Below are positions 30,406-62,356 of a DNA stretch of 64,000 bases, piece by piece; the stretch's first letter is position 1; the number at the start of each line of letters is the position of its first letter. The position numbers were made by a program, and so were the translations under genes. Origin of the DNA: an uncultured bacterium (GTDB lineage Bacteria; Planctomycetota; GCA-002687715); assembly GCA_902826835.1 (NCBI GenBank), contig CADEGH010000023.1:6220-70219 (forward strand), read 5' to 3'. Below the pieces are notes generated by a model that was not told the DNA's origin, searched no databases, and worked only from the letters and a program-made list of their open reading frames with translations.

Positions 30406-30777
30406 ATGCCGACCTTCTCCCTGGCCCCGGATGCGCGTGCCGCGCTCGATCAGATCCGAGAGGCCTCCGACCACGCCGTCGTCATGGTCTTCAAGAAGAG
30501 CCCCACTTGCCCGATCAGCCACGAAGCGGAGGCCGAATGGCGGCGCTTCTTGCGCACCGTCCCCGAACCCACCCTCGTCGCGGAGATCGATGTCATTGCG
30601 GAGCGCGCCTTGGCTCGAGGCTTGGTGGCCGAACTGGGAATCCGCCACGAATCGCCCCAGGTCCTCGTGTTCGCACGGCAGGATCTCACTTGGCACGAAA
30701 GCCACGGCGAAATCACCGAAGGGTCCCTGAGGGGTCATCGGGATCAGGCGGCCCACCGGCTTGCCTCGACGACCTGA
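30406..30777 (+). CDS. YtxJ-like thioredoxin-fold protein (DUF2847; monothiol TCPIS motif)
   Basis: 123 aa; VMVFKKSPTCPISHEA matches the YtxJ family linked to the bacillithiol system in other bacteria. Confidence 0.6.
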   Translation: MPTFSLAPDARAALDQIREASDHAVVMVFKKSPTCPISHEAEAEWRRFLRTVPEPTLVAEIDVIAERALARGLVAELGIRHESPQVLVFARQDLTWHESHGEITEGSLRGHRDQAAHRLASTT

Positions 30778-32057: not shown

Positions 32058-32125
32058 TCCCGGGAACGAGAACAGCCCGGAAACCTCTCGGTCCCCGGGC
32101 CGCCCCTGCTACGCACTGAGAGATC

Positions 32126-32920
32126 TCAGTTCGCCGCTTCGCGCTTCGCGAAAGACTTGAGCTTGAATTTGCTGCCTTCGAGCAGCTTCTTCACGCCGTC
32201 CTCCGTGATCGCATCGGTCTTCGTGCTCTGGTATTCCACTTTGGAGGTATCGCCGAACGGGAGCACGACGATGGTGCCATCGACCTTGGTCAAGATCTCA
32301 CGGATCTTGAAGCAGGTGTCCTGTCACCCAACGCCGTCTACGACGAGGTCGTACACGGCGGCAGCCTTGGGCTTCGTAACTTGGGTGAGGGACTTGAAAC
32401 GCTGAGGCTTGAGCGCCTCGTCGAGCTTCGCGCGATCGGGCGCAGAGCCGTCCTTGGTCGTGATGAAAGCGAACGCGGTGGTGTCTACGGTCACGCTCTG
32501 CATGCCGTCGATCTTGGACAGGGTCTCACGGATCCTGTTGGCGGTTTTCGCCGCGCTTCACCCACCGCCACCGGAGTAAGCGAGGACCCAGAGGGTCTCG
32601 CCCATCGGCGGCTTGACTCCCTCGACCGTGAGGCCGAGCGACTTCAGAGCCGGGGCCACGGAAGCGGCATCGACGCTCTTGCCGTCTTCGACGGTGAGGG
32701 CGATCTTCGACGCGTTGGCATCGAAGGTGGCTTCCTTGACTCCGGGGATACCGAGGGCGGCCTTGACGACCGCATCGGTGGTGACGTCCGCGGTCGACTT
32801 GACGGCGACCTCGAACACGTTTTTCGCTCTCATGATCGGGAGATCGTCACCCGGGCCGCCGACGGCCCCGAAACAGGCCGTAGCCAGCGTGACGATCACC
32901 CCCGCGCTCAACATGCGCAT
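32126..32920 (-). CDS. Candidate secreted selenoprotein with three HMA-like repeats. The reading frame continues through two in-frame TGA codons (32558-32560 and 32324-32326), proposed to encode Sec.
   Basis: One continuous 265-codon frame: ATG at 32920 preceded by GGAGG. It contains a signal peptide (MRMLSAGVIVTLATAC), HMA-like repeat 1 with no Cys or Sec, TGA, repeat 2 (U-SAAKTANRIRETLSKIDG...), TGA, and repeat 3 (U-QDTCFKIREILTKVDG...), then a terminal TGA at 32126-32128. Segments 2 and 3 contain no usable start codon. Both TGAs sit in the beta1-alpha1 loop, where HMA domains carry their CxxC. A SECIS-like hairpin lies 14-20 nt downstream of each TGA. TGA is an ordinary stop elsewhere in the window. 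Confidence 0.5.
32291..32309 (-). promoter_or_regulatory. SECIS-like hairpin 2, 14 nt downstream of the second in-frame UGA
   Basis: mRNA CAAGAUC-CGUGA-GAUCUUG forms a perfect 7-bp stem with a 5-nt loop CGUGA. The stem uses a UUG Leu codon and a CGU Arg codon. Confidence 0.45.
32518..32538 (-). promoter_or_regulatory. SECIS-like hairpin 1, 20 nt downstream of the first in-frame UGA
   Basis: mRNA ACAGGAUCCGUGAGACCCUGU forms stem ACAGG/CCUGU, one A-C mismatch, then UC/GA, closing a 5-nt apical loop CGUGA containing GU. Confidence 0.4.
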
Positions 32921-33285
32921 GGAAGGGTCCTCCAAAGTGGAAAAGGATGCGATGACCTTACCAGGGATCGGCTGAGCCGGGGCCCTGGCTGTCCCCAAGG
33001 ACGCGGCCTTCGCCCCTGTGTAAACACCGGGCGAGCGGAAATCCTTCCGCCGGTCAAGGTTATGGACCGTCCCGGCCGATCTACCTCCCGGAGCTGAAGG
33101 AAAGTCCGAAGGGTCGCAGGGGCCGGGATCCGGATCAATCGGGCGCGTTCGGGTCTTCCCCGTGCGCACACGCGTCCGACGGGCGGCCGGTCGCCGCCAG
33201 GCTTCGGTTGCCCTCCCAGTTCACCCCGGGTTTTCGCCGAGTTCCCTTGCCTCCTCTTGGCATAGTGGGAGAGGACCCCATTTCC

Positions 33286-41190: not shown

Positions 41191-44100
41191 ATGAACTTCG
41201 CCCCTCCCCCTTCCGACTCCCGCCCTGAAACCGCGCCCACTCCCTCGCCCAAAGTCGAGGAGTGGAAACGCCGACTCCTGGACCTTTCGGCCCGCAATCG
41301 TCTCCTGCATTTCCGCACCACGAAGTGCACGATCGAGCTCGGCGAACAACCCCTGGCGGCACTGGCCGCCCGTCTCGAGAAGTCGGAACTGCGATTCGAT
41401 GCACTTCGACCCGAGCGAGAAGACGAAGCCGGGGACGCGCGGCCGCTCGCCCGGGCCGCCGCCATTCAGCGGGGTGTCCTGGAATGCGAACACCCGAAGG
41501 AGGAACTCCCGGAGCGACTCCTCGCGACCTGGCGAGCCGCTCGCACCGAACTCTCGGAGACCGGAACGAGCACTCTGACCTGCATCCTAGGTTTTGTGCG
41601 GTGGGCCGACGAGGATCCGCAGGGGCCAGCTCGCCGAGCCCCGTTGCTCCTCCTGCCCATCGAACTCGAGCGCACGCTCTCCACGCATCGATTCCACATG
41701 CGCTGGCGCGATGCGGACGCACGGCTCAACGAAACCCTGGTGGAGAAACTCCGTCGCGACTTCTCCATCGATCTGAGTTCGGTCAGTGCGTTGCCCGAGA
41801 CCGAAGAGGGCACCCTCGACATTCCCCACTTCTTGGCGCAAGTGCGGACCCAAATCAGCTCTGATCCTCGTCTCTCCCTCGAAGAGACGAGCGCGGTGGG
41901 ATTCCTTTCCTTTTCGCGATTTCTCCTGTGGCACGACCTCGTGGAGCGCGAAGCCACGCTGCTCGACCAGCCTCTCTTGGCGCACCTCGTCCGCGGAACG
42001 CCCCACCCAAGTCTCGAACCCCGCTTCAAGTCGAAGACCTCGTTGCGTCAATCCCGGCCGTGGACGGCCTGGCCACTCGTGCTCGACGCCGACGGCTCCC
42101 AGCTCACCGCCATCGAAGCGGCCCTCTCCGGGCAGAGTTTTGTTCTTCAGGGTCCGCCGGGAACCGGCAAGTCCCAGACCATCACCAACCTGATCGCCGC
42201 CTTCCTCGCGGAGGGCAAGACCGTGCTGTTTGTCGCTGAAAAGCAAGCGGCGCTGCAAGTCGTCGCGGAGCGACTCCGGCGTGTCGGCCTCGGCGACGCC
42301 TGCCTCGAATTGCATTCCACGAAAGCCAGCAAGCGCGAGCTGGCGACCGAACTGGTCCGAGTCTTGGACCTCCCTTTGGTCCAGGACCGACCGAAGCTCA
42401 ACGGGACGCGGGATCTCGACGAGTTGGTCCGTAGCCTCGAAACGAGCGCCGAGGCGTTGCACCAACCGTTCCCCCTCGGAACGAGCGTGTTCGAGTTTGG
42501 CCACGAGGCGAGCCCCGCCGCGGCTTCGCAATTCACCATGGAGTTCGACTCCATCCTCGAAACGACCCGGGACCTCCACGAGCGGCGGCTCGTCGGCCTG
42601 CGCGAGTTGGCAGCGCAAGCGAAGGACCAGGGTGACCTCGCGTTGCATCCGCTCCGGGACTGCCGACGCACGGAGTGGTCACCCCTCATCGAATCCCAGC
42701 TTCGAACCGCTCTCGCGGGGCACCTTGGGGCCCTTCGAGACTGGAGTTCTGCGCACGTGCGAGCTGCGATCCTGCTCGGGATCTCCCCCGAGCGCGCCGC
42801 AGGCGCCACCGATCGGGTGTGCGAGCTTCTGCGCCTCCTGCCCGGTTGCATCCCCACGGAGTTCGCTGACCAGGGCCCGGGCACGATCGATACCCGACTC
42901 GCTCAAGGTCTCGAGGCCTGGCACGAACGCGCTGAAGAACTGGATCGGGTGGGCTGCGCCTTGACCCCGTGGCTTCGCGAGTCGGTTCTCGACTTGGACC
43001 TGAATTCCCTCCTCCGCGAAGCCGAGGGCGCGGCCGAGAAGGCCTTCCCTCTCAAGTGGTGGAAGGAGCGATCACTGTGGAAAGCCCTGGGCAGCGCGCT
43101 CTTGAGCGGAAAGCCGCCCGCGCTCCCTTTGTCCGAACTCCTGCGGCTCGCTCAGCGCTGGCAGTCGCTCCTTCGGGGCCCCAATTCGGCGCTCGCCGCC
43201 GCCCCGAGCGGCCTTGCGGCCACGGTGAGGGAGTCGCTGAACCTCGCCCCGGCGCGAATCCTTGAACTCGCGCAATGGGCCCACCGCTTTGCGGCGGTGG
43301 CGGGACACGGCGGAGCCGTCTCGCTCATTCCGGCGGCGTGGCCAGGCGCCAGTGAAGCCGAGGCCGCGGGCGTTGCCCATGCGCTTGCGGTCGCAAGCGA
43401 GCAAGTCGTTTCGAGTGGACTCCGCATCGCGGACCTCTTGCAGCTCCCCCCTCATCATCCACTGCGTCATCAGCGCGCCCGCGGCGTGGTTCCCGCGGAG
43501 ACCCTCCAGGCCTGGCAGGCTGGTCTGCCTCGCTTGCGGGCGTGGGCACGTTTCATTCAAGCGGAATCCGCACTCCACGGCACGGGGATGGAAAGCCTCC
43601 TCGCCGCCCTTCATTCCGGGAGGGTCGAAGCGGACTCGCTAGTCGCTGCCTACGAAACCGACTTCCGCCGGCAGTGGTTGAGCACCGCCATTGACTCACT
43701 GCCCACTCTGCGGGGATTTCATGGCCCGGAGCACCAGCGCCGACTCTCGGAATTTCGTGAAGGCGATCGGGAGTGGATTGCCGCGGGCGGCGAACAAGTT
43801 TCCCACGCGGTGGCCAAACGGCGGCCGACCGCGAACCATCCGGACTTGCCGCAATCCGAGTTGAAAGTGCTCCGCCACGAAGCCAAGAAAAAGGTCCGTC
43901 ATTGGCCGATTCGCCGGCTCTTGTCCGCGACCACACAGACTTGGCCCCGACTTAAGCCGTGCCTGCTCATGAGCCCGCTCTCGGTCGCCGAGTTCCTACC
44001 GGCCGGAGAATTCCAGGCCGACCTGGTGGTCTTCGACGAAGCAAGCCAGGTGCCCACCCACGTCGCGGTCGGGGCAATCGCGCGCGGCCGGCAAGTCGTG

Positions 44101-45264
44101 ATCGTCGGGGACAGTCAGCAGCTTCCGCCCACGGACTTCTTCGACAAGAAGCTCGACGACGAAGACGAGGTAGCGGAGGAGTCCGGCGTTTTGCCCGACC
44201 TCGAGAGTATTCTCACCACCGCGGAAGCCGAGCTCGTACCGAGCTGGCGACTCCAGTGGCACTACCGAAGCCGCCACGAAGACCTCATCGCGTTCAGCAA
44301 TCGCCACTTCTACGGCGGCGAATTGGTCACCTTCCCGAGCCCCCACTCCGGAGGATCCGACCGCGGGCTGTCGCTGCGGAGGATCGAGGGCGATTATGGC
44401 GGCAGCACCACCCGCACCAATCCGAAGGAGGCCGCGGCGGTGGTGGAGTGGATTGTCGCCACCCTCCGGGATCCGGCGCAGCGGTCGAGGTCGATTGGCG
44501 TCGTCACCTTCAACCAGCCGCAACAGGTCTTGATCGAAGACTTGCTGGACCATGCGCGCGAACAATTCCCGGAAATCGAGCCGGCCTTCGCCCCGACCCA
44601 CTCTCATCCCCTCTTCGTCAAGAACCTCGAAAACGTGCAAGGAGACGAACGGGACATCATGCTCTTCTCCGTGACGTACGGGCCCGACAGCTCCGGGCGG
44701 TTGCGTCAGCATTTTGGCCCCCTCAACAACGAAGGAGGCGAAAAGAGACTCAATGTCGCAATCACGCGGGCTCGCGAACAGTTGATCGTCTTCACTTCGA
44801 TTCCGCCCGGAGCCCTGAATCCCGATCGCATGCAAGCCCGCGGCGCGCGCCTCTTGGCCGAATTTCTCCAATTCGCCGAGTCCGCGGGCGTGGAGCGGTC
44901 CGCCCTCGACCCGCAGGCGTCCCCCGGATCCCACGAGTCCCCCTCACTCGCGAGCCGGATCGCCGATGCTCTGAATAGCCGTGGCTACACCGTGCACTGT
45001 GGTCTGGGCGCGTCCAATCTGCGGATTGACGTGGCGGTGCGTCACCCGCACCAACCGGATCGTTGGATCTTGGGCATTCTGACCGACGCCCCGACCGCCC
45101 TACCCACCGCCAATTTGCGCGACCACGAGCGACTGCGCATCGAGGTCTTGCAGCGCCTCGGCTGGGAATTGCACCAGGCGTGGTCGCCCGACTGGTGGCA
45201 CGACGCCGACGCGGAAATCCGGTGCATCGTGGACAAGCTCGAGTCCTTGACGGCCGCCCCCTGA
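41191..45264 (+). CDS. Large protein combining DUF4011, an SF1 (Upf1/DNA2-like) helicase and a DUF3320 REase-like domain
   Basis: 1357 aa. DUF4011 N-terminus (RLLDLSARNRLLHFRTTK). Walker A FVLQGPPGTGKSQTITNLIA, motif II LVVFDEASQV, VVIVGDSQQLPPT, the motif V/VI block RLNVAITRAREQLIVFTS, and a C-terminal DUF3320-like region. Confidence 0.8.
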   Translation: MNFAPPPSDSRPETAPTPSPKVEEWKRRLLDLSARNRLLHFRTTKCTIELGEQPLAALAARLEKSELRFDALRPEREDEAGDARPLARAAAIQRGVLECEHPKEELPERLLATWRAARTELSETGTSTLTCILGFVRWADEDPQGPARRAPLLLLPIELERTLSTHRFHMRWRDADARLNETLVEKLRRDFSIDLSSVSALPETEEGTLDIPHFLAQVRTQISSDPRLSLEETSAVGFLSFSRFLLWHDLVEREATLLDQPLLAHLVRGTPHPSLEPRFKSKTSLRQSRPWTAWPLVLDADGSQLTAIEAALSGQSFVLQGPPGTGKSQTITNLIAAFLAEGKTVLFVAEKQAALQVVAERLRRVGLGDACLELHSTKASKRELATELVRVLDLPLVQDRPKLNGTRDLDELVRSLETSAEALHQPFPLGTSVFEFGHEASPAAASQFTMEFDSILETTRDLHERRLVGLRELAAQAKDQGDLALHPLRDCRRTEWSPLIESQLRTALAGHLGALRDWSSAHVRAAILLGISPERAAGATDRVCELLRLLPGCIPTEFADQGPGTIDTRLAQGLEAWHERAEELDRVGCALTPWLRESVLDLDLNSLLREAEGAAEKAFPLKWWKERSLWKALGSALLSGKPPALPLSELLRLAQRWQSLLRGPNSALAAAPSGLAATVRESLNLAPARILELAQWAHRFAAVAGHGGAVSLIPAAWPGASEAEAAGVAHALAVASEQVVSSGLRIADLLQLPPHHPLRHQRARGVVPAETLQAWQAGLPRLRAWARFIQAESALHGTGMESLLAALHSGRVEADSLVAAYETDFRRQWLSTAIDSLPTLRGFHGPEHQRRLSEFREGDREWIAAGGEQVSHAVAKRRPTANHPDLPQSELKVLRHEAKKKVRHWPIRRLLSATTQTWPRLKPCLLMSPLSVAEFLPAGEFQADLVVFDEASQVPTHVAVGAIARGRQVVIVGDSQQLPPTDFFDKKLDDEDEVAEESGVLPDLESILTTAEAELVPSWRLQWHYRSRHEDLIAFSNRHFYGGELVTFPSPHSGGSDRGLSLRRIEGDYGGSTTRTNPKEAAAVVEWIVATLRDPAQRSRSIGVVTFNQPQQVLIEDLLDHAREQFPEIEPAFAPTHSHPLFVKNLENVQGDERDIMLFSVTYGPDSSGRLRQHFGPLNNEGGEKRLNVAITRAREQLIVFTSIPPGALNPDRMQARGARLLAEFLQFAESAGVERSALDPQASPGSHESPSLASRIADALNSRGYTVHCGLGASNLRIDVAVRHPHQPDRWILGILTDAPTALPTANLRDHERLRIEVLQRLGWELHQAWSPDWWHDADAEIRCIVDKLESLTAAP

Positions 45265-50356: not shown

Positions 50357-53300
50357 TCAGGTGTCGAACTCGAGGATGAAGGAGACCGCCGTCACCGCCA
50401 TGGACGCATCCTGGAGGATGAAGATGTCGTCGGTGTCGATGCCCACGGGCACCGAGAGCGGCGGGACATCAAGGCGGGCCATGCCACGTTCGTCGAGGAA
50501 TCCGAACCAGGGCGGAGTGGTGTTCAGGATCGCGTAATTGTCGAGCGCATCCGGGCCAAGCCCGACGATGGGTCCGGTGCCTTGGAGGTGGCCCCCGCTG
50601 AAGGTGAACGACCACCGCTCGCCGGCGTGATCGATGCCGGCGTTGATGATCAGGGTGAGGCCTCCACCGAGGCCCGTTCCGTTGAGGCGGACATCCATGC
50701 CGGCGTCGTAGTTGATGGCGCCCGGGACGTCGCTGTTGGCCAGGCCCATGGTCCGAGTCGCCTTCGGGCCGAAGTTGGCGCCCAAGTTGGTGTCCGAGCT
50801 TTGGGCATTGCGGCCGATAGCCCCGTCCCCCGTTCCGGCCCGCGGTGCCGCTCCCTGGAAGCTGTACCAGCTCGACGGAAAGCGCGGGTGGTTATGGGCC
50901 ACCAGGTCGTTGTGCCCGGTCGTTCGCATGCAGTCCATCAAGCGCCCGAAGGAGTCGTAGAGCGCACAATCGTACTCCTCGGTAGTCCAGGGAATGCCCG
51001 GTCCGCCGTTGGCTGCCACGTTGATGTAGGTGACGTTGGCAGGCTTTTCACCGGGAGGCGTCGAGGTGTCGCCGAGCACGATGTAGGCCCGGTTGCCGAT
51101 TCCGGGATTGGGCAGGTTGGCGCCCCAAGGGATCGGGATCCGCGTATGCGTCGAGCCCTGATTCGCGGAAGCCAGAATGTAGTACCCGGATAGATCGATT
51201 TCCCCGATTCCCGACCACGCGATCTCGATGAAATCCGGGCTGTCATCGGTCTCGTTGATGAGGACTCTGATCCCTGGCAACCACGCATCGGTATTGCCCG
51301 AGCCAGAGCAGGCGTTTTCGAGGCCGAAGCTCCTTGGCCCAAACGAGAGCCAGTCCGCCGCGCTGTTCGAGTCCAACCCCCAAGCGCGCTCGGCGTTTCC
51401 GACGATCGAAGTCAGAGTTCCGGCCGCCTCGTTCCTCACCAGGCCCCGGAAGGCACCACCCAGGGATCCCTCGGTGTAGCCGGAGGTCGAGGACGCGACT
51501 CGAACTTCGTCCATCACCACGCCGGAAGCGGAGCGCAGCGCGACTGCGAAGTCACTCGTGGTTGTGCCGATGTTCGGAAGATTGCGCAAAATTTGGCAGT
51601 TGGCCGGTGTCTCCAAGGGGGTCGGCGCCGTCGACTCGAGCACCAAGGCGATCTCGCCCGGCAGAAGGGTCCCGCTCAAGGGCGTCGACACGAGGGTCGA
51701 TCCGTCTTTCCACACCACGGTCCAGCCCGAGAGCGAGGCCGTGGTCGTACCGAAGTTCGCGATCTCGATCCCGTCCGGGTTCCCGGAGGAGACCTCCGTG
51801 ATCAGGACTCGGCCCAGAGCCGGAGGAATCCGCGCCGCAAACACGTCGTAGTCGCCAGCATTGGGACAGGGATAGTCGGAGAGGGGGACGCCGACCAAGA
51901 AGCGGGACTGAGTGTCCCCGTTGGTGTCGCCTACAAACGCCAGAGTCCAGCCGAAGGAGGTGCCGATCGGGGGAGCCCCGAAGACCTGATAGCGCCGCTC
52001 TTTGTGGAGCACCTCGCCAGTGCGCCCCGATCGAACGTGGACGTAGCCGGGACCGGTGACTCCGGTCGCGCTGTTCCCGAACTGGATCGCGCCGACTCCG
52101 AAGTCGCCAGCGCCGTCACCATCGACATCGCCGGCGTCGCAGAGGGACCAGCCGTAACTGTCTCCGACGGCCTCACCGACGTAGGTCGCGAGAGTCGTGT
52201 ATCCGAGGGTGAAAATCGGCGTCGTATTTCCGGCGCCGGAGTAGATCCGGACGTAGCCCGTGCCACCTTCACTCGGGGTCAAACCACCCCCGTCCGAGGC
52301 GCCCGCCACGATGTTGGCCTTCACTCCGTTCGCGGAAATCGAGGCAATCATCGCCACGGAGCGACCGAGGTTGTCGGCGATTCCGTCTCCGTCACGCGTG
52401 GCCACAAGGGTGCCCGAAGCCCCCGAGTAGACGAAGATGCGGCCGCAGTTCGAACCCCCGGTGCCGTCGAAGCCCGACGACCCGATCACGTAGTCCGGCA
52501 CGCCGTCCGTCCCGAGATCGCGCCCGCCGGCCAGCCCTTCACCGAAGCTGTCGAAGAAGTTCGTGCCGTTGTGGGTGCGGATCAGGCCGCCGTTCACCGA
52601 CCAGAGTTCCACCCGCCCGGTGCCAGTGTTGTACGCCTGGGCGCCCACCAGGAACTCGGTGTCGCCGTCACCATCGATGTCCCCCACGCGGGCGAACGAC
52701 TCGCCGAAGCCGCCAAACGCGGTGCCGTAGTTGACGGTCGCGATCGAGACGCCGGTCTGGCCGTTCAGGATCTGCCATCGACCCGCGAAATTGTTGTACC
52801 CGGGGCTGCCAACGACGACGTCCTCGCGGCCATCGCCGGTGACGTCGCCGAGGCTCGCGGTCGCCGCCCCGAATCCGTAGTCGGCGCCGGCGCCTTCGAC
52901 GCTCCAGATCACCGCGCCGGTGTAGCCGGAAATGAGGCGCAGCCGTCCGCGGGCGTTGGAGCCGTAGCCCGGCTCCCCCACGACAAAGTCGGCGTAGCCA
53001 TCACCGTTGATGTCCCCGACGCCCGCGACACCGCTCCCGATTTCATTGTCCTGTGTGGAGCAGGGGGGGTAGGTGATGTTGAAGCTCACGCTGGCGGGAG
53101 CCCGGAAGCCCGCGACCACGTCGTTCTCGATCAGGATGCTGTGGAGGCCGACCGACTGAAGCAGGTTCGACGGCACCCAGGCCCGAACCGTCGTGGGGTT
53201 GATGAATTGGGTCTCGAGCGGGCTGAAATCCCAGAGCACCCGAGTTCCCAGGACCCCGTCTCCGTCGAGGGATCCCTCGAAAAATCGTGTGCCCGAAACT

Positions 53301-54136
53301 TCGACCCAGATCCCTCCACTTCCGGCCGTCACCGAGTTCGGCGAAACCGAGGTGCAGGTCGGCTGCCGTGCGCTGCCGTAGCGTGAGGCCATGGCCTGGG
53401 CATCCAGCACCGTAAGGTGACTGCGATTCCCCATGACGTTTTGGAACTGCGTAAACCCCGGGCGCGCCTGGATTGTGGGGATCGCCGAATTCACCGCAAA
53501 CGCGGTGTCGTTGTAGTGCATGATCGATTCGAAGTCGTACGCCCCGGTGGGAGTCGCCGTGAGCGACTTGGCGAAGTTGTTGTCGCAGGGGTTTCCGTTG
53601 CAAGCGGTCTGCGAGATGTTGCCAAAATTGATCGAGACATAAGTGTCGCGATCCGGGCGGGACTGCTCATGAAGAAAGCCCAGCGCATGGTAGAGCTCGT
53701 GCACCAAAATGTACTTGTCGTCCCAGTGATTGGCTCCCACGCCGAGGTCCTGGACTCCCCCATCCATGCCGACCGCGGAGTAACTCACCGAGTTCGAGGC
53801 CGTGTTTTGGATGATCTGGATCCGGTTCGGTGCGACCGAACTCTCGAAGAAATCGACGTTCGCGATGGACTCGATCTCCCAAAACGCCTTGCGGAAGAGG
53901 TCTCGCCGCGTGGCCGAGATGTTGGCGGCAAATTCGTAGAAAACGTTGCCAGCGGGCCAGGCGGTAGCCGTCCACACTCCTTCCCCGAAGATCGCCTCCG
54001 GCGGGAGGACCATGTCGTCCACCACGATCCGGTCAGGGCGGGGAGCGGGTACGGGGGACTGGCCGGGGGCCAGGGCGCAAGCGAAGAGACAAAGCGCGGG
54101 GAGCGCGTAGCGGCCAACAGAGGCGAGGGAGAGCAT
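50357..54136 (-). CDS. Giant secreted astacin-like (M12A) metalloprotease with FG-GAP beta-propeller repeats, two lamin-tail domains and a conserved C-terminal domain
   Basis: 1259 aa. Signal MLSLASVGRYALPALCLFACALAPGQS. Astacin zinc site HELYHALGFLHEQSRPDRD with a Met-turn SIMHY. Multiple FG-GAP repeats; LTD-like RVLITEVSSGNPDGIEIANF...SGWTVVW and RVLINETDDSPDFIEIAWSG. Confidence 0.8.
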   Translation of the reverse strand: MLSLASVGRYALPALCLFACALAPGQSPVPAPRPDRIVVDDMVLPPEAIFGEGVWTATAWPAGNVFYEFAANISATRRDLFRKAFWEIESIANVDFFESSVAPNRIQIIQNTASNSVSYSAVGMDGGVQDLGVGANHWDDKYILVHELYHALGFLHEQSRPDRDTYVSINFGNISQTACNGNPCDNNFAKSLTATPTGAYDFESIMHYNDTAFAVNSAIPTIQARPGFTQFQNVMGNRSHLTVLDAQAMASRYGSARQPTCTSVSPNSVTAGSGGIWVEVSGTRFFEGSLDGDGVLGTRVLWDFSPLETQFINPTTVRAWVPSNLLQSVGLHSILIENDVVAGFRAPASVSFNITYPPCSTQDNEIGSGVAGVGDINGDGYADFVVGEPGYGSNARGRLRLISGYTGAVIWSVEGAGADYGFGAATASLGDVTGDGREDVVVGSPGYNNFAGRWQILNGQTGVSIATVNYGTAFGGFGESFARVGDIDGDGDTEFLVGAQAYNTGTGRVELWSVNGGLIRTHNGTNFFDSFGEGLAGGRDLGTDGVPDYVIGSSGFDGTGGSNCGRIFVYSGASGTLVATRDGDGIADNLGRSVAMIASISANGVKANIVAGASDGGGLTPSEGGTGYVRIYSGAGNTTPIFTLGYTTLATYVGEAVGDSYGWSLCDAGDVDGDGAGDFGVGAIQFGNSATGVTGPGYVHVRSGRTGEVLHKERRYQVFGAPPIGTSFGWTLAFVGDTNGDTQSRFLVGVPLSDYPCPNAGDYDVFAARIPPALGRVLITEVSSGNPDGIEIANFGTTTASLSGWTVVWKDGSTLVSTPLSGTLLPGEIALVLESTAPTPLETPANCQILRNLPNIGTTTSDFAVALRSASGVVMDEVRVASSTSGYTEGSLGGAFRGLVRNEAAGTLTSIVGNAERAWGLDSNSAADWLSFGPRSFGLENACSGSGNTDAWLPGIRVLINETDDSPDFIEIAWSGIGEIDLSGYYILASANQGSTHTRIPIPWGANLPNPGIGNRAYIVLGDTSTPPGEKPANVTYINVAANGGPGIPWTTEEYDCALYDSFGRLMDCMRTTGHNDLVAHNHPRFPSSWYSFQGAAPRAGTGDGAIGRNAQSSDTNLGANFGPKATRTMGLANSDVPGAINYDAGMDVRLNGTGLGGGLTLIINAGIDHAGERWSFTFSGGHLQGTGPIVGLGPDALDNYAILNTTPPWFGFLDERGMARLDVPPLSVPVGIDTDDIFILQDASMAVTAVSFILEFDT

Positions 54137-55931: not shown

Positions 55932-58490
55932 TCACTCGCCCCGCGCGCCGAGAAGCGGCTGAAGACGCGATTTCCATTCGGGACTGATGCCCTCTCCCAA
56001 TCCGTCGAGGGCCTCTCGCGCCGCCGCTCGGGCCTCGCGCTTCTCCCCTACCACTCCAGAAATCACGGCAAACTCGGCGAGGAGTTCCGCGTCTTTCCGC
56101 TCTGTTTCCGCGACCGCGCGCCTCATCCAAGCGTAGGCCGTAAGCTGCTCAGAGGCGCCCGCCGAAGGGGAATCGAGGAGCTGGCGCGCCAGTTTGACAC
56201 GGCGGTGGGGGGTCGTAGGCGCGGCCTCCGCCTCGGCAACCACGGCGTCGAGGCCTGCCCGCCGCTCGAGCTCGGTGTCCTCGTCGGCTTCAGCCGCCCT
56301 CTGGAGACGCTGGTAGGCGGTGAGGACATCGTCCACATGCCCATCCCCCCCTGGCGTCGCGCGTGCGGCATCCGCTTGGAAGCGCGCTGACATATGCCAC
56401 GCCACGATCGCGCCGGGCAAATCCCGCTCCGCCGAAGCCAGATAGGCGCGGAATCGCCAGACATCTGCCAGTCGATCCTGGGCCAGGACACTCTCCGGAT
56501 GCGCCGACGCATAGCTTTCGGCGTGCCGCAGAGCTTGATCGAGCGCCGCCCGAGCCGGCCCCGGGCGTTTTTCATTGACCTCGATCTGGCCGAGCTTCAA
56601 CCAGATCAAGCCGAGGTCGAACTGATCGAAGGCCTGCACACTCGGGTGATTGAGCATTTCCTGCCGCAGGTCTCGACAGAGTTCCATCCGCTCCCGGGCC
56701 CGATTCGCGTCCCCGGTGCGCGCGAGCCCGTCCCCCTCCTGCTCGAGTAGGAGACAGACGAGCCTTCGGGCCCAAGGGTCCTCCTTCAGGCTTAGGAGAA
56801 CCTTGCGTTCCTCGTCCAAGTTTTCGATATGCGTCAACACCGAAGCGAAGTCACCGCGTTGCCATTCCATCTGCATTTCGCAGAGTTCGATGGCCACCGC
56901 CTCACAGACGAGGGAAGTGACCTTCGGCCACTTCTGACGAGCGCCTTCGATCAGAGATCGCGCCTCGGCGAGGGTCGAGCGCGCCGCTGCAGAGTCCTGA
57001 CGTCCTTGCTTTTGAGGAGAACTCTGGGTCTGTGCCTTCTCTCGCAGTGCCGCCGAAACCTCGATGACCAGCGCGGGTTCCGGTTCGGCCGATCTTTCCA
57101 CGGCGCGCAGGGTGGCCAGAGTTTGATCGGCCAATCGACCGCGGTAATCCGCCGCTGCCGGCAGATAACGAAGTTCCTGGCTCAGCGAGGCGGCTAGTGC
57201 GCGCACCACTTCCCGAATCTGAACGAGGCGGGCCCGATCCTGTTCCTGTGCCAACGACAATCGTTGTGTCGCCTCGTTCGCAGTACGCAGAAGCAGCAAG
57301 CTGACAACCAAGCCGGTGACCAAGCTCAGGAGCGCGACCGCGAGGCTGGCGGATACGACGGGGTGCCGCCGCGTGAGTCGGAGCGTGCGGTAGAGAGGCC
57401 CCGCAGGCCGGGCGTGAACGGGTTCGCCGCGCCTCGCACGTCCCAAGTCCTCGGCGAAGGCCTGGGCACTCTGGTATCGGCGGTCCCGATCCTTCTCGAG
57501 CGCCGTGAGGACGATGGCGCGCAGGTCTCGATCCACCCCTGGATCGACACTGCGAGGATCGATGGGGTCCTTGGTCATGATCGCGCGGTAGGTTTCCGCC
57601 CGCGAGGGTGCGTCGAACGGTCGGGATTTCGTGAGGACCTCGTAGAGAGTCACCCCGAGCGCCCAGACATCGACGCGGGGATCGAGCGGAATGCGGCTGC
57701 CCGAGATTTGTTCGGGTGCGAGATAGGAAGGCGTCCCGAGGATGTCGCCGGTGAGGGTCAAGTGGCGCTGGTCCTGGTCGATCTCCTGGGCGAGGCCAAA
57801 ATCCAAAATCATCGGACGCTCACCCGGGGTGAGCATCAGGTTGCCCGGCTTGATGTCGCGATGGAGCACGCCCACGCCATGCGTGGCGTGCAACGCCGCC
57901 GCGGCTTCCTCAAAGTACGCGAGTAGCCGGTCGCGACTCGAAAAGGGCGCCCACATGGGCTTGCCGAATCCCCGCTCTTTCGGCAGACGCTTGGCGAGCG
58001 TCTCGCCCGCGATCAGGGGCATGGCCACGTAGGAAAGGCCGTCCGCCTGCCCGACATCGTGCACGCCGCAAATCGCCGGGTGCTCGACCTTCGAGGCCGC
58101 CATCGCCTCCCGCCGAAACCGCGCGAGAGCGGCGTGGCTCTCGAGGCCGGGCAAGCTGCGGAGGACTTTGAGGGCGACACGTCGGCCCAAACGGGTGTCT
58201 TCCGCCAGATAAACGACCGCTTGACCGCCTCGACCGATTTCCTCGAGCACCGTGTACGGCCCGAGTTCGCGAGGACCGAAATCCGCCGTAGCCGCCTTGG
58301 CTTCCACCGTGGTCTTGGGTGGCTCGCCTTTCTCAATCAACCGGTACTCACGGAGCACGGTGTCGCTGTGGTCGGGCCACAGGGCGATGTACTCCTCCAC
58401 CGAGACCACCTTGCCGGCTTCGCGATCCTTGAGGTAGCGCTCCATGAAGGCGAGCGCGACCCATTCGTCGGTGGGAGCGGCATTCAGCAT
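55932..58490 (-). CDS. Membrane-anchored Ser/Thr protein kinase with a large C-terminal domain (paralog of the kinase at 21354..23885)
   Basis: Hanks kinase motifs: glycine loop GRGGQAVVYLA, catalytic loop HRDIKPGNLML, DFG, and the APE-type motif GTPSYLAPE. TM helix VVSASLAVALLSLVTGLVVSLLLL precedes a C-terminal helical domain of about 480 aa. The stop abuts the convergent ECF sigma stop. Confidence 0.85.
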   Translation of the reverse strand: MLNAAPTDEWVALAFMERYLKDREAGKVVSVEEYIALWPDHSDTVLREYRLIEKGEPPKTTVEAKAATADFGPRELGPYTVLEEIGRGGQAVVYLAEDTRLGRRVALKVLRSLPGLESHAALARFRREAMAASKVEHPAICGVHDVGQADGLSYVAMPLIAGETLAKRLPKERGFGKPMWAPFSSRDRLLAYFEEAAAALHATHGVGVLHRDIKPGNLMLTPGERPMILDFGLAQEIDQDQRHLTLTGDILGTPSYLAPEQISGSRIPLDPRVDVWALGVTLYEVLTKSRPFDAPSRAETYRAIMTKDPIDPRSVDPGVDRDLRAIVLTALEKDRDRRYQSAQAFAEDLGRARRGEPVHARPAGPLYRTLRLTRRHPVVSASLAVALLSLVTGLVVSLLLLRTANEATQRLSLAQEQDRARLVQIREVVRALAASLSQELRYLPAAADYRGRLADQTLATLRAVERSAEPEPALVIEVSAALREKAQTQSSPQKQGRQDSAAARSTLAEARSLIEGARQKWPKVTSLVCEAVAIELCEMQMEWQRGDFASVLTHIENLDEERKVLLSLKEDPWARRLVCLLLEQEGDGLARTGDANRARERMELCRDLRQEMLNHPSVQAFDQFDLGLIWLKLGQIEVNEKRPGPARAALDQALRHAESYASAHPESVLAQDRLADVWRFRAYLASAERDLPGAIVAWHMSARFQADAARATPGGDGHVDDVLTAYQRLQRAAEADEDTELERRAGLDAVVAEAEAAPTTPHRRVKLARQLLDSPSAGASEQLTAYAWMRRAVAETERKDAELLAEFAVISGVVGEKREARAAAREALDGLGEGISPEWKSRLQPLLGARGE

Positions 58491-58555: not shown

Positions 58556-61500
58556 TCAGGTGTCGAACTCGAGCACGGCGGTCTGGGCGGCGATCGCGCC
58601 TCCGTTCAGGACGATGAAGATCGCATCGACCTGAATACCGGCGGGAGCGATGCCGGGCGGAGCATCGAGGCGGGCCGAGCCGTCGACGTCCAAGATCCCG
58701 AACCAAGGGGGAGTGGTGCTGAGGGTCAAGTAGTTGTCGATCGCGTCGAGGCCGAGCCCGAAGACCGGCCCGGTGCCCCCGAGGTGCCCACCGCTGAAGG
58801 TGAAGCTCCAGGCCTGTCCCGCCATCGTCGAGCCGCCATTCATGATGATCGTGAGGCCCTGGCCGGCCGCAGTGTCATTGACCCGGACTCCGAAGGGGCC
58901 GGCCGCGGTTCCGATTCCGACCGAACCCGTGAACCCACCGCCGGCGTTGTTAGACCCCATGGTCCGGTTCGTGACGGCCTGCCAGTCACTCCCGACATGG
59001 GAGTCCTGGGTGGTGCTGATGCGAGCGACCGCCACGGTTCCGGGTGCAAACCTGGGAGCTGCCCCCGTGAAATCTTGCGGGTGCGAAGGCGCCCGGGGGT
59101 GGTTGTGCACGATCGGGCCACTGGTCGCGGTCGTCCGCACGGCATCGATGAGACGGCCGTAGGAATCGTAGAGCGCGAGGCTGAACTCCGCGGAGACCAT
59201 CGGGAGGTTGCCGCCGGCCACCGCCTGGAGGTTCACGTAGGGCACGCCGAGCGGGATTTCCGCGGGCGCGGTGGCGTCATCCCCGATCACCAGGAAGTTG
59301 CCGGAGGCCCAGGCGAGCGGATTTGGGAACGGCCGGATTTCGGTGTGCTCGGTATTCTGGCCGGCGCTGGCGAGCAGCGTCCAGTGTTGCAAATCGAGGG
59401 TGGCGATCCCACCGTTACGCAGCTCGACGTAGTCCGGGGAATCGTCGACCTCGGTGATGCGCACGACCGGCACGGGCAAGGGGTCTGTGCCCCTCGGACC
59501 GCTCGACCGATTTTCGAGGCCCATCGAAGAGGCGAACTGCTCGGTCCAATCTGCGCCGGAGTTGGAGTCCAAGCCCCAGATGCGCTCGAGGCTGCCGCCG
59601 AGGGATCCCGCGGTGCGCGTCGCCAATCCCCGGAACGGGCTCCCGAGGGTGCCTTCGGTGTACGTAGCCGACGAGCTCGCGATACGAACCTCGTCCGCGA
59701 CTACGCCGCGAGGCGAAAGCAGAGCGACCACACAGTCCCCGGTCTGAGTCGGAATGTTGCCGGTGAAGGTCGTGAGGGTGGTGGTGCCGACCGGAGTCTC
59801 GGGATAGGTGCCCGCCGAGTCCCGGATGATGATCGAACGGCCGGGCGCCAAGCTGCCGCTCAGCGTGCCGGAGACGGTGGTAGCCCCGTCCTTCCATGTC
59901 ACGCGCCAGCCCGAGAGCGAGCGGGTCACGGTGTCGAAGTTGGTCACTTCGACGCCGTCGACGTTGCCGGTGGTCACCTCGGTGATCATCAGCTTGCGCC
60001 ACTCGGGACGACGATTGAAATCGACGATCCTGGCCAAGCCGGCGTTATCGCAGCGCTCGTCACTCAGGGGTGAGCCGACGATCACTTCGAAGCGTCCATC
60101 GGCATCGAAGTCCCCGGCCGCGGCAACGCTGCGTCCGAATCGTTCGTTGTTGACTTCGCCGGTGTGCGACCCGAGGGCGGCAAAGTCCTCTCCCGACAGA
60201 GCACGGACGTAGCCTGGACCCGAACCGGTTCCGAGCAAGCCGACTCCGGCCTCATCGGCGCCGACCACAACATCCATCCAACCGTCCTGATCGAGGTCGC
60301 CGGCCAACGCCACCGACCGACCGAAACGGTCCCCCGCTTCGGAACCGACTGCTTGCATTACCTGATCCAGAGTGCCTAGACCCACGCGATAGGCCCGCAC
60401 GTATCCGGGGCCCGCGTCGTTGCCGAAGAGGTCACCCGCTTCCGGGGCGCCCGCCACAACCGCGGCGCCAGCCGCGTCCACGCTGTACGGCAACACCGTC
60501 AAGCTCGTGCCGAGTTGGTCCTGCGGCCCGGAGCCGGTCGCGGTGTAGAAGATGCCCGCGGGAGAGATGTAGAGCCGAACGCGGCCGTTGTTGCTGGCGC
60601 CGAAGTTCGGAGCGCCGACCGCCACTTCCGGGATCCCGTCCCCGTTGAAGTCGGCGCCACCCGCCACCGAGGCACCCATCCGTTCGCCGGCCTCGGAGCC
60701 GCCGTAGGTGTTGAGCAGGGCGCCGTTGGTGCCACTGAACGCGTAAGCCGTGCCCGTATCCGCATTCGCGCCGGGAGCGCCAACCAGAAGATCGGGGGTT
60801 CCGTCTCCATTCATGTCGCCAGCGGCCGCCACCGCGTAGCCGTATTCGTCGCCGTTGGCCGCGCCGAGGAAGGTGAGAAGAGCGTTGCCGTTGGTGCCGT
60901 CGAGTACCTGGACCCGACCCCGCGAATTCGAGTGCTCGGGGGCTCCGACGATGAGGTCGTTCACCCCGTCGTTGTTGATGTCGCCCAGATTGGCGAGCGC
61001 AGTGCCATGCGCCGAATCCACCGTCCCGGTGGACACCCACAAAAGTTGCGAGGTCGCTCCCGAGTAGCAGATCACTTCGCCGTCGCCCGAAAGATACTCG
61101 GGCGCACTCACCGCGATGTCGTCGTAGCCGTCGTTGTTCACGTCGCCGAGGCCCACCACCGCGGCGCCGCGCTGTTCACCGGGCAGGAGCCCGTAGAAGC
61201 GGCCGACCACCGGCGCGAGGCTCAGAACGTTGAAGGTCACGGCATTCGAGAGGCCACCGGCGGGAGCCGGGTTTTCGATCTGCACCGTGATGCAGCCGGG
61301 GGTGTCGAGCATCGACTGGGTAGCCGTGAACTGGAACTGCGTCGGGGTGACCCAAGTGCCGGCGACGATTGCGCCGTCCCAGCGCACCCGCGTACCCTGC
61401 ACGCCGAGATTGCTGGGCGAACCGTCGTAGAAGAGGGTGCCGTTGATGGTCACGACGACTGGACCCGCACCTACGAACGCCTGACTCGGAATCATGCTGC

Positions 61501-62266: not shown

Positions 62267-62356
62267 GAAGGTGTCTCCGAGAGGCCCCACAGGTAGGTCG
62301 CCTCTGCCCCCTCGGTTGACGCCCGCGGCCGGATCTGACCAAAAAAATCCTGAGAA

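What the first reader, a model, noticed from the sequence alone, without database searches (positions are those of the whole stretch)
32291..32309. Perfect 7-bp hairpin with a CGUGA loop 14 nt downstream of the second in-frame UGA (SECIS-like)
mRNA CAAGAUC-CGUGA-GAUCUUG is a perfect inverted repeat with a GU-containing apical loop, at the distance from UGA expected for bacterial SECIS elements. The stem is built from codons AAG-AUC-CGU-GAG-AUC-UUG (K-I-R-E-I-L). It uses a UUG Leu codon and a CGU Arg codon, both unusual choices in this very GC-rich genome. That points to selection on RNA structure rather than on protein sequence alone.
Basis: seen in the sequence. Interest (0 to 1): 0.7.

Follow-up and report, generated by a model that had tools for sequence, protein, structure and literature searches.

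The report
Selenocysteine-insertion hairpin in metal-binding gene
The small RNA hairpin after an in-frame UGA "stop" codon is very probably the signal that makes the ribosome insert selenocysteine there; the mechanism is textbook, but the exported metal-binding protein that carries it belongs to a family that current databases annotate only as broken hypothetical fragments.

Summary
The hairpin is real. On the minus strand, CAAGAUC-CGUGA-GAUCUUG lies at 32309-32291, or 8 bp at 32310-32290. It sits 14 nt after the in-frame UGA at 32326-32324.

By itself it is no rarer than chance. Its context makes it convincing:

- It lies in one 264-codon gene (32920-32126) with a signal peptide and three HMA (MerP/CopZ-like) domains.
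- Both in-frame UGAs fall where HMA domains carry their first metal-binding cysteine.
- The first UGA (32560-32558) has a sister hairpin with the same CGUGA loop.
- In nine homologous genes (38-66% GC), all 21 in-frame UGAs are followed 18-27 nt later by a 5-8 bp stem. The loop is CGUGN in 20 and AGUGU in one.
- Stem pairs covary, including through amino-acid-changing compensatory substitutions.
- The loop arginine codon is CGU in 20 of 20 cases, against 10% at other arginines.
- The one Cys-containing homolog with DNA keeps the peptide KVRETL but has neither the stem nor the GU loop.
- The element meets the published bacterial SECIS consensus.

Two things are missing: selenocysteine machinery in the window, and any experiment.

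Verdict: a canonical bacterial SECIS element in an uncatalogued, multi-selenocysteine HMA protein family found mainly in Planctomycetota-like genomes. It is a new member of a known kind.

The parts
32126..32920 (-). Single coding sequence of 264 codons, with ATG at 32920-32918 and the true stop UGA at 32128-32126. It encodes a signal peptide plus three HMA-like (MerP/CopZ-like) domains. Domain 1 has no Cys or Sec. Domain 2 reads ...YSGGGG-U-SAAK.... Domain 3 reads ...VDGVG-U-QDTC....
   Evidence: Translation. Coordinates. High GC3 continues in frame across both UGAs. A gene caller cut the gene into 120-, 59- and 55-aa pieces on the identical Logan contig. A profile of the Sec-bearing domains matches solved HMA domains.
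32929..32933 (-). Shine-Dalgarno sequence GGAGG, 8 nt upstream of the ATG.
   Evidence: Read directly from the sequence.
32558..32560 (-). First in-frame UGA, the predicted Sec codon of domain 2.
   Evidence: Homologous protein fragments end exactly here (...YSGGGG; P0001, P0012).
32518..32538 (-). Sister hairpin (SECIS 1): ACAGGAUC-CGUGA-GACCCUGU. It has 7 of 8 pairs with one A.C mismatch. The loop starts 27 nt after UGA 1.
   Evidence: -6.4 kcal/mol alone. It uses the rare AGG Arg codon (4% of Arg) to complete the stem. Synonymous resampling gives P=0.00057.
32324..32326 (-). Second in-frame UGA, the predicted Sec codon of domain 3. It aligns with the first Cys of the HMA GMTCxxC motif.
   Evidence: Homologous fragments end at ...VDGVG (P0005, P0006, P0008, P0018, P0020).
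32290..32310 (-). The loop spans 32302-32298 and starts 21 nt after UGA 2.
   Evidence: -8.9 kcal/mol. Family-wide conservation and covariation.
32234..32247 (-). CCUCCAAAGUGGAA (codons T-S-K-V-E-Y of domain 3). It is perfectly complementary over 14 nt to the Shine-Dalgarno region at 32942-32929. It is a possible long-range anti-SD pairing, and its membership in the system is uncertain.
   Evidence: I3. In one search, 0 of 200 shuffles reach 14 nt, but the pairing is absent from 7 of 8 homologs.

Best explanation
The hairpin at 32310-32290 is a bacterial selenocysteine insertion sequence (SECIS). While the ribosome approaches the UGA at 32326-32324, the hairpin 14 nt downstream is proposed to expose its G-U-containing apical loop. 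[quoted passage not shown] This tethers the factor next to the A site, so that UGA is read as selenocysteine and not as stop.

A second copy of the same module (32538-32518) does the same for the UGA at 32560-32558. The product would be an exported three-domain HMA (MerP/CopZ-like) protein. Selenocysteine replaces the first metal-ligand cysteine in two of the three domains.

Shown here: the structure, its position, its conservation and covariation, its strict association with UGA, and the Cys/Sec alignment. Inferred: SelB binding, actual Sec insertion, and metal binding by the product.
For: 1. Anatomy fits the published bSECIS model. The model requires a 3-9 nt loop, a 4-16 bp stem, G in the first two loop positions followed by G/U, 16-37 nt from UGA to loop, and MFE of -7.5 kcal/mol or lower (PMC13188914). 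Here the loop is CGUGA, the stem is 7-8 bp, the distance is 21 nt and the MFE is -8.9 kcal/mol.

2. Both UGAs lie inside a continuous coding signal. Both sit at the same structural position in two paralogous domains.

3. A full-library HMMER search found 23 relatives. Many are fragments ending exactly before the UGA positions. Three 'full-length' relatives carry W there, and these turned out to be TGA translated with code 4.

4. In 9 genes with 38-66% GC, 21 of 21 in-frame UGAs are followed by the hairpin. The loop starts at 18, 21, 24 or 27 nt.

5. Covariation is strong. 85% of cells are paired, against 69% in shuffles and 47% or less when the partners are slid. Seven of 8 pairs show double-sided changes, and 0 of 500 shuffles reach the observed score. 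RNAalifold independently predicts the 7-bp stem, with 6 pairs showing compensatory changes. Several compensations change amino acids in a coupled way: Ile with Ile, Val with Thr or Ala, Ala with Ala, in 20 of 21 sites.

6. The loop codon is CGU in 20 of 20 Arg cases, against 6 of 60 at other Arg codons of the same genes.

7. Control: the Cys homolog L009 (GMV-C-GVRC...KVRETL) uses AAA GUG CGC GAA ACU CUC. It has no closing pair and no GU loop, and folds at -3.0 kcal/mol in a different structure. Domains without U or C have Lys or other residues at the loop position.

8. A profile of the Sec domains matches solved HMA domains (MerP 1afi E=1e-8, CopZ, ATP7B). The U column falls on the first Cys of GMTCxxC.

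9. Full Sec machinery is documented in several Planctomycetes (PMC4807772). The one family-bearing genome with a name is a Planctomycetota MAG.
Against: - No selA, selB, selD or tRNA-Sec is present in the 64-kb window. The rest of the genome could not be read.
- There is no experimental evidence of any kind.
- The hairpin alone is thermodynamically unremarkable (z=-1.35) and no more frequent than chance in the window.
- The sister hairpin has an A.C mismatch and folds at only -6.4 kcal/mol in isolation, above the model's -7.5 limit.
- The Cys-homolog control is a single sequence.
- The 21 sites are related by descent (orthologs and duplicated domains), and I anchored the alignment on the loop motif. 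The shuffle statistics therefore overstate independence.
- No Rfam family matches the element.
Confidence: 0.85

Rival explanations
1. The hairpin has no RNA function. It is a by-product of a conserved helix-alpha1 peptide (K/R-I/V-R-E-I/T-L) of the HMA fold, of the self-complementary GAUC that arises from Ile/Glu-Ile codons, and of codon bias.
For: - Part of the stem comes free from the peptide: GAUC pairs with GAUC.
- Resampling synonymous codons gives the full stem in 8% of trials for this site.
- The 35-nt DNA similarity between domains 2 and 3 extends past the hairpin into the conserved K-x-D-G codons (D2).
- Similar hairpins occur at the chance rate in the window.
Against: - The Cys homolog keeps KVRETL without the stem or the GU loop.
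- CGU is used in 20 of 20 loop codons, against 10% elsewhere, across genes of 38-66% GC.
- The amino acids themselves change in pairs that preserve base pairing.
- Domains without UGA lack the Arg altogether.
- The joint synonymous-resampling probability for the two window sites is about 5e-6.
Confidence: 0.04
2. The hairpin is a functional recoding signal, but not for selenocysteine. It would slow the ribosome or stimulate near-cognate read-through of UGA (Trp, Cys, Arg or Gly), or act with some other factor in a lineage that lacks SelB.
For: - Sec machinery was not seen in the window.
- Downstream stem-loops can stimulate stop-codon read-through in other systems (established knowledge).
- In domain-2-type sites the UGA follows a Gly run (GGGG-U) and no partner Cys is present.
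Against: - The UGA aligns with the metal-ligand Cys of HMA domains, and a Cys homolog exists. This is the classical Cys/Sec signature.
- The invariant G-U in a small apical loop and the 16-37 nt spacing are the SelB-SECIS hallmarks. They are not features of read-through stimulators.
- Planctomycetes with complete Sec systems are documented.
- UGA is the commonest genuine stop codon in the window, so there is no genome-wide reassignment.
Confidence: 0.07
3. The locus is a decayed pseudogene, or three separate small ORFs, and the hairpin is irrelevant.
For: Automatic gene callers report three separate small ORFs. NCBI labels one homologous fragment a hypothetical protein.
Against: - The two stops are both UGA and fall at the equivalent functional position of two domains.
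- The same pattern of 2-3 UGAs recurs in nine diverged homologs with no other stops or frameshifts.
- The pieces after each UGA lack their own beta-1 strand.
- Coding signal is continuous across the UGAs.
Confidence: 0.02

Closest known systems
Bacterial SECIS element (bSECIS consensus of Zhang and Gladyshev, as summarised in PMC13188914; the prototype is the E. coli fdhF SelB-binding hairpin)
   Same: It lies inside the coding region just 3' of an in-frame UGA. It has a small apical loop with G followed by U in the first positions, a 7-8 bp upper stem, 21 nt (27 nt for site 1) from UGA to loop, and an MFE below -7.5 kcal/mol for this site.
   Different: The loop sequence is unusually stereotyped within the family. 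C-GUG-N is always read as an Arg CGU codon plus G, in frame. No bulged U is evident. No Rfam family matches. SelB binding was not tested.
NCBIfam NF041115 'UxxU_metal_bind' metal-binding (seleno)protein, and other HMA-type selenoproteins (cation-transporting ATPase E1-E2 with UxxC; NF045683 MerT/CopZ fusion-like selenoprotein)
   Same: These are HMA-fold proteins in which Sec takes the place of a metal-ligand Cys. A distant family member, L004 (GMT-U-GGSC, three times), scores 113 bits against NF041115 summed over three domains.
   Different: The window protein scores 11.6 bits against a cut-off of 95. Its motifs are U-x3-C or a lone U after a Gly run, not UxxU or UxxC. It has a signal peptide and 2-3 tandem domains, not a single 74-aa domain. 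It carries 2-3 Sec residues, each with its own SECIS.
MerP / CopZ periplasmic and cytosolic metallochaperones (Pfam PF00403 HMA)
   Same: A domain of about 70 aa. The family profile matches solved MerP, CopZ, CopA and ATP7B domains, with the U column on the first Cys of GMTCxxC. Like MerP, the protein has an N-terminal signal peptide.
   Different: The single window sequence falls below Pfam's HMA gathering score (20.8 versus 24.8 bits). Sec replaces Cys. The second ligand is shifted by one residue (U-x3-C) or missing. Domain 1 has no ligand at all.

Membership tests
Bacterial SECIS (bSECIS model) | Stem-loop located within the ORF, immediately downstream of an in-frame UGA | tested here: met
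   UGA at 32326-32324. The stem starts 14 nt later, and the ORF continues for 65 more codons.
Bacterial SECIS (bSECIS model) | Apical loop of 3-9 nt on an upper stem of 4-16 bp | tested here: met
   5-nt loop CGUGA on a 7-8 bp perfect stem. The criteria are taken from PMC13188914.
Bacterial SECIS (bSECIS model) | G in the first two loop positions, usually followed by G or U | tested here: met
   The loop C-G-U-G-A has G at position 2 and U at position 3. The GUG core is invariant in all 21 family sites.
Bacterial SECIS (bSECIS model) | [quoted passage not shown] | tested here: met
   21 nt for this site and 27 nt for the first UGA. The family range is 18-27 nt.
Bacterial SECIS (bSECIS model) | Minimum free energy of -7.5 kcal/mol or lower | tested here: met
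   -8.9 kcal/mol for the reported hairpin alone. The sister hairpin at the first UGA reaches only -6.4 kcal/mol in isolation.
Bacterial SECIS (bSECIS model) | Conserved structure in orthologous selenoprotein genes, absent from Cys-containing homologs | tested here: met
   21 of 21 UGA sites in 9 genes have it, with covariation. The single Cys homolog with available DNA lacks it. The control is n=1.
Bacterial SECIS (bSECIS model) | UGA aligns with Cys in homologous proteins (Cys/Sec pair) | tested here: met
   P0010 has GMV-C-GVRC at the aligned position. The profile aligns U with the first Cys of GMTCxxC in solved HMA domains.
Bacterial SECIS (bSECIS model) | Genome encodes the Sec-decoding machinery (selA, selB, selC/tRNA-Sec, selD) | tested here: inconclusive
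   None is present in the 64-kb window (ARAGORN; Rfam; Pfam). Sec machinery is known in some Planctomycetes (PMC4807772).
Bacterial SECIS (bSECIS model) | Binds SelB and directs Sec insertion at the UGA | not testable with these tools
   Requires a SelB binding assay, 75Se labelling or mass spectrometry, or a reporter assay.
Rfam curated RNA families | Match to a curated covariance model | tested here: not met
   No hit at gathering score in the window apart from one tRNA. In 32100-32950 at E up to 10 there were only three chance-level, unrelated hits.
HMA domain (Pfam PF00403; MerP/CopZ fold) | Sequence match to the family profile | tested here: inconclusive
   The window protein alone scores 20.8 bits, below the 24.8 cut-off. 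A profile of 21 Sec-bearing domains hits 47 solved HMA chains, for example MerP 1afi at E=1e-8. Homologs L011, L005 and L004 hit MerP/CopZ models at E from 1e-5 to 1e-33.
HMA domain (Pfam PF00403; MerP/CopZ fold) | Metal-binding GMxCxxC motif in the beta1-alpha1 loop | tested here: not met
   The position is kept but the motif is altered. Domain 3 has GVG-U-QDT-C (U-x3-C). Domain 2 has GGGG-U-SAAK with no second Cys. Domain 1 has no ligand.
HMA domain (Pfam PF00403; MerP/CopZ fold) | Beta-alpha-beta-beta-alpha-beta fold | not tested
Only sequence-profile evidence is available.
NCBIfam NF041115 UxxU metal-binding (seleno)protein | Score above the curated cut-off and a UxxU motif | tested here: not met
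   11.6 bits against a cut-off of 95. The motifs are U-x3-C or a lone U.

The most novel reading that the evidence does not exclude
Beyond being an uncatalogued selenoprotein family, the mRNA may couple its own translation initiation to successful Sec decoding. A 14-nt perfect anti-Shine-Dalgarno sequence (32247-32234) lies downstream of the second UGA and could sequester the ribosome-binding site (32942-32929). Only ribosomes that have read through both UGAs would reach it and melt it, so initiation would rise when selenium and SelB are available. The evidence does not exclude this. The pairing is statistically unusual in this mRNA. However, it is absent from 7 of 8 homologs, with one possible 11-nt analogue in L003.
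Probability: 0.06. Interest if true: 0.7.

Novelty: new member of a known kind. Interest (0 to 1): 0.45.

Why it matters
The mechanism is established biology, so the hairpin itself changes nothing conceptually. The value is threefold.

1. It rescues a real gene. Gene callers chop it into three 'hypothetical' pieces, or mistranslate it with genetic code 4 (W at the Sec sites). This adds an exported tandem-HMA protein with 2-3 selenocysteines to the short list of selenoproteins implicated in metal handling.

2. The family gives an unusually clean natural example of an RNA structure dictating protein sequence. The SECIS loop fixes an Arg (CGU) in helix alpha1. The stem forces coupled amino-acid pairs (Ile/Ile, Val/Thr, Ala/Ala).

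3. The stereotyped 'NNC-CGU-GNN' module, duplicated together with the domain, is a simple search key. It could be used to find more selenoprotein genes in Planctomycetota-like metagenomes.

Tried and rejected
Searches and jobs that gave nothing:
- A word-indexed protein search with the read-through protein found nothing. The family only appeared with the exhaustive HMMER library.
- The search for related loci with the single protein found no relatives in genome contigs or metagenome contigs.
- Two family alignments were too diverged to yield search patterns.
- A trimmed alignment gave one genome locus, L008, identical to L005. It gave nothing in metagenomes.
- DNA for P0005 (the closest relative) and P0017 was unavailable because the JGI files are too large.
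I used X at the U positions instead.
- phmmer of domain 3 alone against the PDB found nothing. The profile search did.
- Consensus promoter and terminator scans found nothing around the gene.

Ideas rejected:
- Genome-wide UGA reassignment: most window ORFs end in UGA.
- Other selenoprotein genes in the window: only these two UGAs have coding signal on both sides, and the other candidates are antisense shadows.
- A conserved anti-SD pairing: it is not conserved.
- A conserved gene neighbourhood: the neighbours differ between loci.

Full report
**Observation.** On the minus strand the sequence reads ...GGC GUU GGG UGA CAG GAC ACC UGC UUC AAG AUC CGU GAG AUC UUG ACC.... The UGA is at 32326-32324. 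Fourteen nt later comes CAAGAUC (32309-32303), then CGUGA (32302-32298), then GAUCUUG (32297-32291). A flanking U-A pair extends the stem to 8 bp (32310-32290). RNAfold gives this hairpin as both MFE and centroid, at -8.9 kcal/mol for the hairpin alone.

Taken in isolation it is not remarkable. The 66-nt region is only 1.35 sd more stable than dinucleotide shuffles. Hairpins with at least 6 bp and an NGUGN loop occur 8 times in the window, against 7.7 in shuffles. This is the only one preceded by an in-frame UGA.

UUG is 16% of Leu codons and CGU 10.5% of Arg codons in a 64% GC window. I resampled synonymous codons for the same peptide using the window's codon usage. The full stem plus a GU loop appears with P=0.0086.

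**The gene.** Reading through the two in-frame UGAs gives one 264-codon ORF (32920-32126), with a GGAGG Shine-Dalgarno 8 nt before the ATG. It encodes a signal peptide and three domains of about 75 aa each. Third-position GC stays high in frame on both sides of both UGAs. No other UGA in the window behaves this way apart from antisense shadows of real genes.

The first UGA (32560-32558...YSGGGG-U-SAAKTANRIRETL) is followed by a sister hairpin, ACAGGAUC-CGUGA-GACCCUGU (32538-32518). It has the same loop and one A.C mismatch, and it completes its stem with the rare AGG Arg codon (4% of Arg). Synonymous resampling gives P=0.00057.

On the identical public contig, a gene caller cut the gene into pieces of 120, 59 and 55 aa. 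The neighbours are a convergent MFS transporter, a BrxC-like bacilliredoxin, and a divergent CapK_C-like/DUF362 pair. The 64-kb window contains no selA, selB, selD or tRNA-Sec.

**Relatives.** Word-indexed and pattern-based searches failed. An exhaustive HMMER search of 1.84 billion representatives found 23 relatives. They fall into three groups:
- Fragments that stop exactly before the U positions (...YSGGGG, ...VDGVG, ...IDGLS, ...KGFA).
- 'Full-length' proteins with W at those positions.
- Proteins with Cys there (P0010, GMV-C-GVRC), or with no ligand (P0004).

Fetching the DNA showed that the W residues are TGA codons translated with code 4. Reading through TGA reconstructs nine homologous genes with 2 or 3 in-frame UGAs each and no other defects: the window gene plus L002, L003, L004, L005/L008, L010, L011/L012, L013 and L014. 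Their GC content ranges from 38% to 66%.

One homolog lies on a 3.99-Mb contig. It also matches a GTDB genome labelled Planctomycetota bacterium SCS4bin.42. NCBI calls its middle fragment a hypothetical protein (MEE9392674.1). The window's isocitrate dehydrogenase is closest (75%) to proteins from Planctomycetota MAGs, with Myxococcota MAGs nearly as close.

**The hairpin across the family.** All 21 in-frame UGAs are followed by a 5-8 bp stem whose loop starts 18, 21, 24 or 27 nt after the UGA. The loop always begins at codon position 1. It is CGUGN in 20 sites and AGUGU in one.

On a 25-column alignment anchored on the loop, these results hold:
- 85% of cells form standard pairs, against 69% in column shuffles and 29-47% when partners are slid by 1-3 columns.
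- Seven of 8 pairs show changes on both sides.
- 0 of 500 shuffles reach the observed covariation score.
- RNAalifold independently predicts the 7-bp stem and 5-nt loop, with 6 of 7 pairs showing compensatory changes.

The pair types are diverse. For example, one pair is U-A in 12 sites, C-G in 6 and U-G in 3. Another is G-C in 14 and A-U in 6.

Stem positions include first and second codon positions, so the compensations are visible in the protein. The residue before the loop Arg and the residue two positions after it co-vary as Ile/Ile, Val/Thr, Val/Ala or Ala/Ala in 20 of 21 sites. The loop Arg is CGU in 20 of 20 cases, whereas CGU is 6 of 60 at other Arg codons of the same genes.

Caveats apply. 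The sites are related by descent. I chose the anchor. The shuffle control ignores phylogeny.

**Negative control.** The Cys-containing homolog L009 has the same peptide as several Sec sites (KVRETL). It encodes it as AAA GUG CGC GAA ACU CUC. The closing pair is lost, the loop is CGCGA without GU, and the segment folds at -3.0 kcal/mol into a different structure. Domains without U or Cys, including domain 1 of the window protein, have Lys or other residues where the Sec domains have the CGU Arg. It rests on a single Cys homolog, because the DNA look-ups were exhausted.

**What the UGA replaces.** The window protein alone is just below Pfam's HMA threshold (20.8 versus 24.8 bits). It matches no NCBIfam model above cut-off. 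A profile of the 21 Sec-bearing domains hits 47 solved HMA chains, including ATP7B, CopA, MerP 1afi (E=1e-8), CopZ and the mercuric reductase N-terminal domain. In those alignments the U column lies on the first Cys of GMTCxxC.

Intermediate family members hit MerP/CopZ models directly. The GMT-U-GGSC triple-domain member L004 reaches 113 bits on NF041115, the 'UxxU metal-binding (seleno)protein' model, summed over three domains.

**Comparison with the known.** A 2026 review states the bacterial SECIS consensus: a 3-9 nt loop, a 4-16 bp stem, G in the first two loop positions usually followed by G or U, 16-37 nt from UGA to loop, and MFE of -7.5 kcal/mol or lower. It also describes the SelB mechanism (PMC13188914). 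The reported hairpin meets every structural criterion. The sister hairpin misses only the energy threshold when folded alone.

The review's table of prokaryotic selenoproteins lists HMA-related entries: cation-transporting ATPase with UxxC, metal-binding protein NF041115 with UxxU, and a mercuric transport protein. It lists several proteins with 2-3 Sec residues. The term searches I ran on it returned no UxxxC motif and no tandem-HMA entry. Complete Sec machinery has been reported in several Planctomycetes (PMC4807772). No Rfam family matches the element.

**Conclusion.** The best explanation is that the hairpin is a bona fide bacterial SECIS that recruits SelB carrying Sec-tRNA(Sec) to decode UGA 32326-32324. 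A duplicate module serves UGA 32560-32558. The gene encodes an exported tandem-HMA selenoprotein. My confidence is about 0.85.

Three rivals remain. A coding by-product has probability about 0.04. A non-Sec read-through signal has about 0.07. A pseudogene has about 0.02. The main gaps are the unseen Sec machinery, the single Cys control, and the lack of any experiment.

This is a new member of a known kind: a canonical mechanism in an uncatalogued protein family. It is also a didactically clean case of RNA structure constraining protein sequence.

**Side observation.** A 14-nt perfect complement to the Shine-Dalgarno region lies downstream of the second UGA. It is statistically unusual but is not conserved in homologs.

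Noticed in passing
window 32929-32942 and 32234-32247 (minus-strand mRNA): A 14-nt perfect inverted repeat lies within the same mRNA. UUCCACUUUGGAGG contains the Shine-Dalgarno sequence. CCUCCAAAGUGGAA lies in domain 3, about 75 nt after the second UGA. None of 200 shuffles reaches 14 nt. An 11-nt analogue exists in L003, and the 7 other homologs examined have none. It may be an anti-SD pairing or a coincidence.
   Followed up: partly
L002 287-838, L003 400-969, L004 95-877 (proteins P0003, P0007, P0015): Public protein collections hold these homologs as 'full-length' proteins with Trp at the Sec positions, because the gene caller used a UGA=Trp code on short contigs. The DNA has TGA there. 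This is an annotation artefact that hides selenoproteins.
   Followed up: yes
family alignment of 21 sites (A4); window 32518-32538 and 32290-32310: The stem imposes coupled amino-acid choices in helix alpha1. The residue before the loop Arg and the residue two positions after it appear as Ile/Ile, Val/Thr, Val/Ala or Ala/Ala in 20 of 21 sites. The window's first site (Ile/Thr) is the one A.C mismatch.
   Followed up: yes
L011 941 and L014 1234 (third-domain UGA sites): Some family members have lost the partner Cys after the Sec (U-ADTA, U-QETA instead of U-QDTC). All domain-2-type sites (GGGG-U-xAA) lack it as well. The Sec therefore often stands alone, which is atypical for an HMA metal site.
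   Followed up: no
window 30406-30777 (+): A 123-aa BrxC-like monothiol bacilliredoxin gene (PF11009, E=4e-22) lies next to the MFS transporter that converges on the selenoprotein gene. A possible thiol/redox link was not examined.
   Followed up: no
window 50357-54136 (-) and 58556-62290 (-): Two large paralogous proteins share the architecture astacin peptidase + FG-GAP repeats + lamin-tail domain. They flank a Ser/Thr kinase gene at 55932-58490.
   Followed up: no
window 41191-45264 (+): A 1357-aa protein with DUF4011, AAA_11/AAA_12 helicase domains and a C-terminal MTES_1575 restriction-endonuclease-like domain. This architecture is reminiscent of defence or DNA-processing helicase-nucleases.
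   Followed up: no
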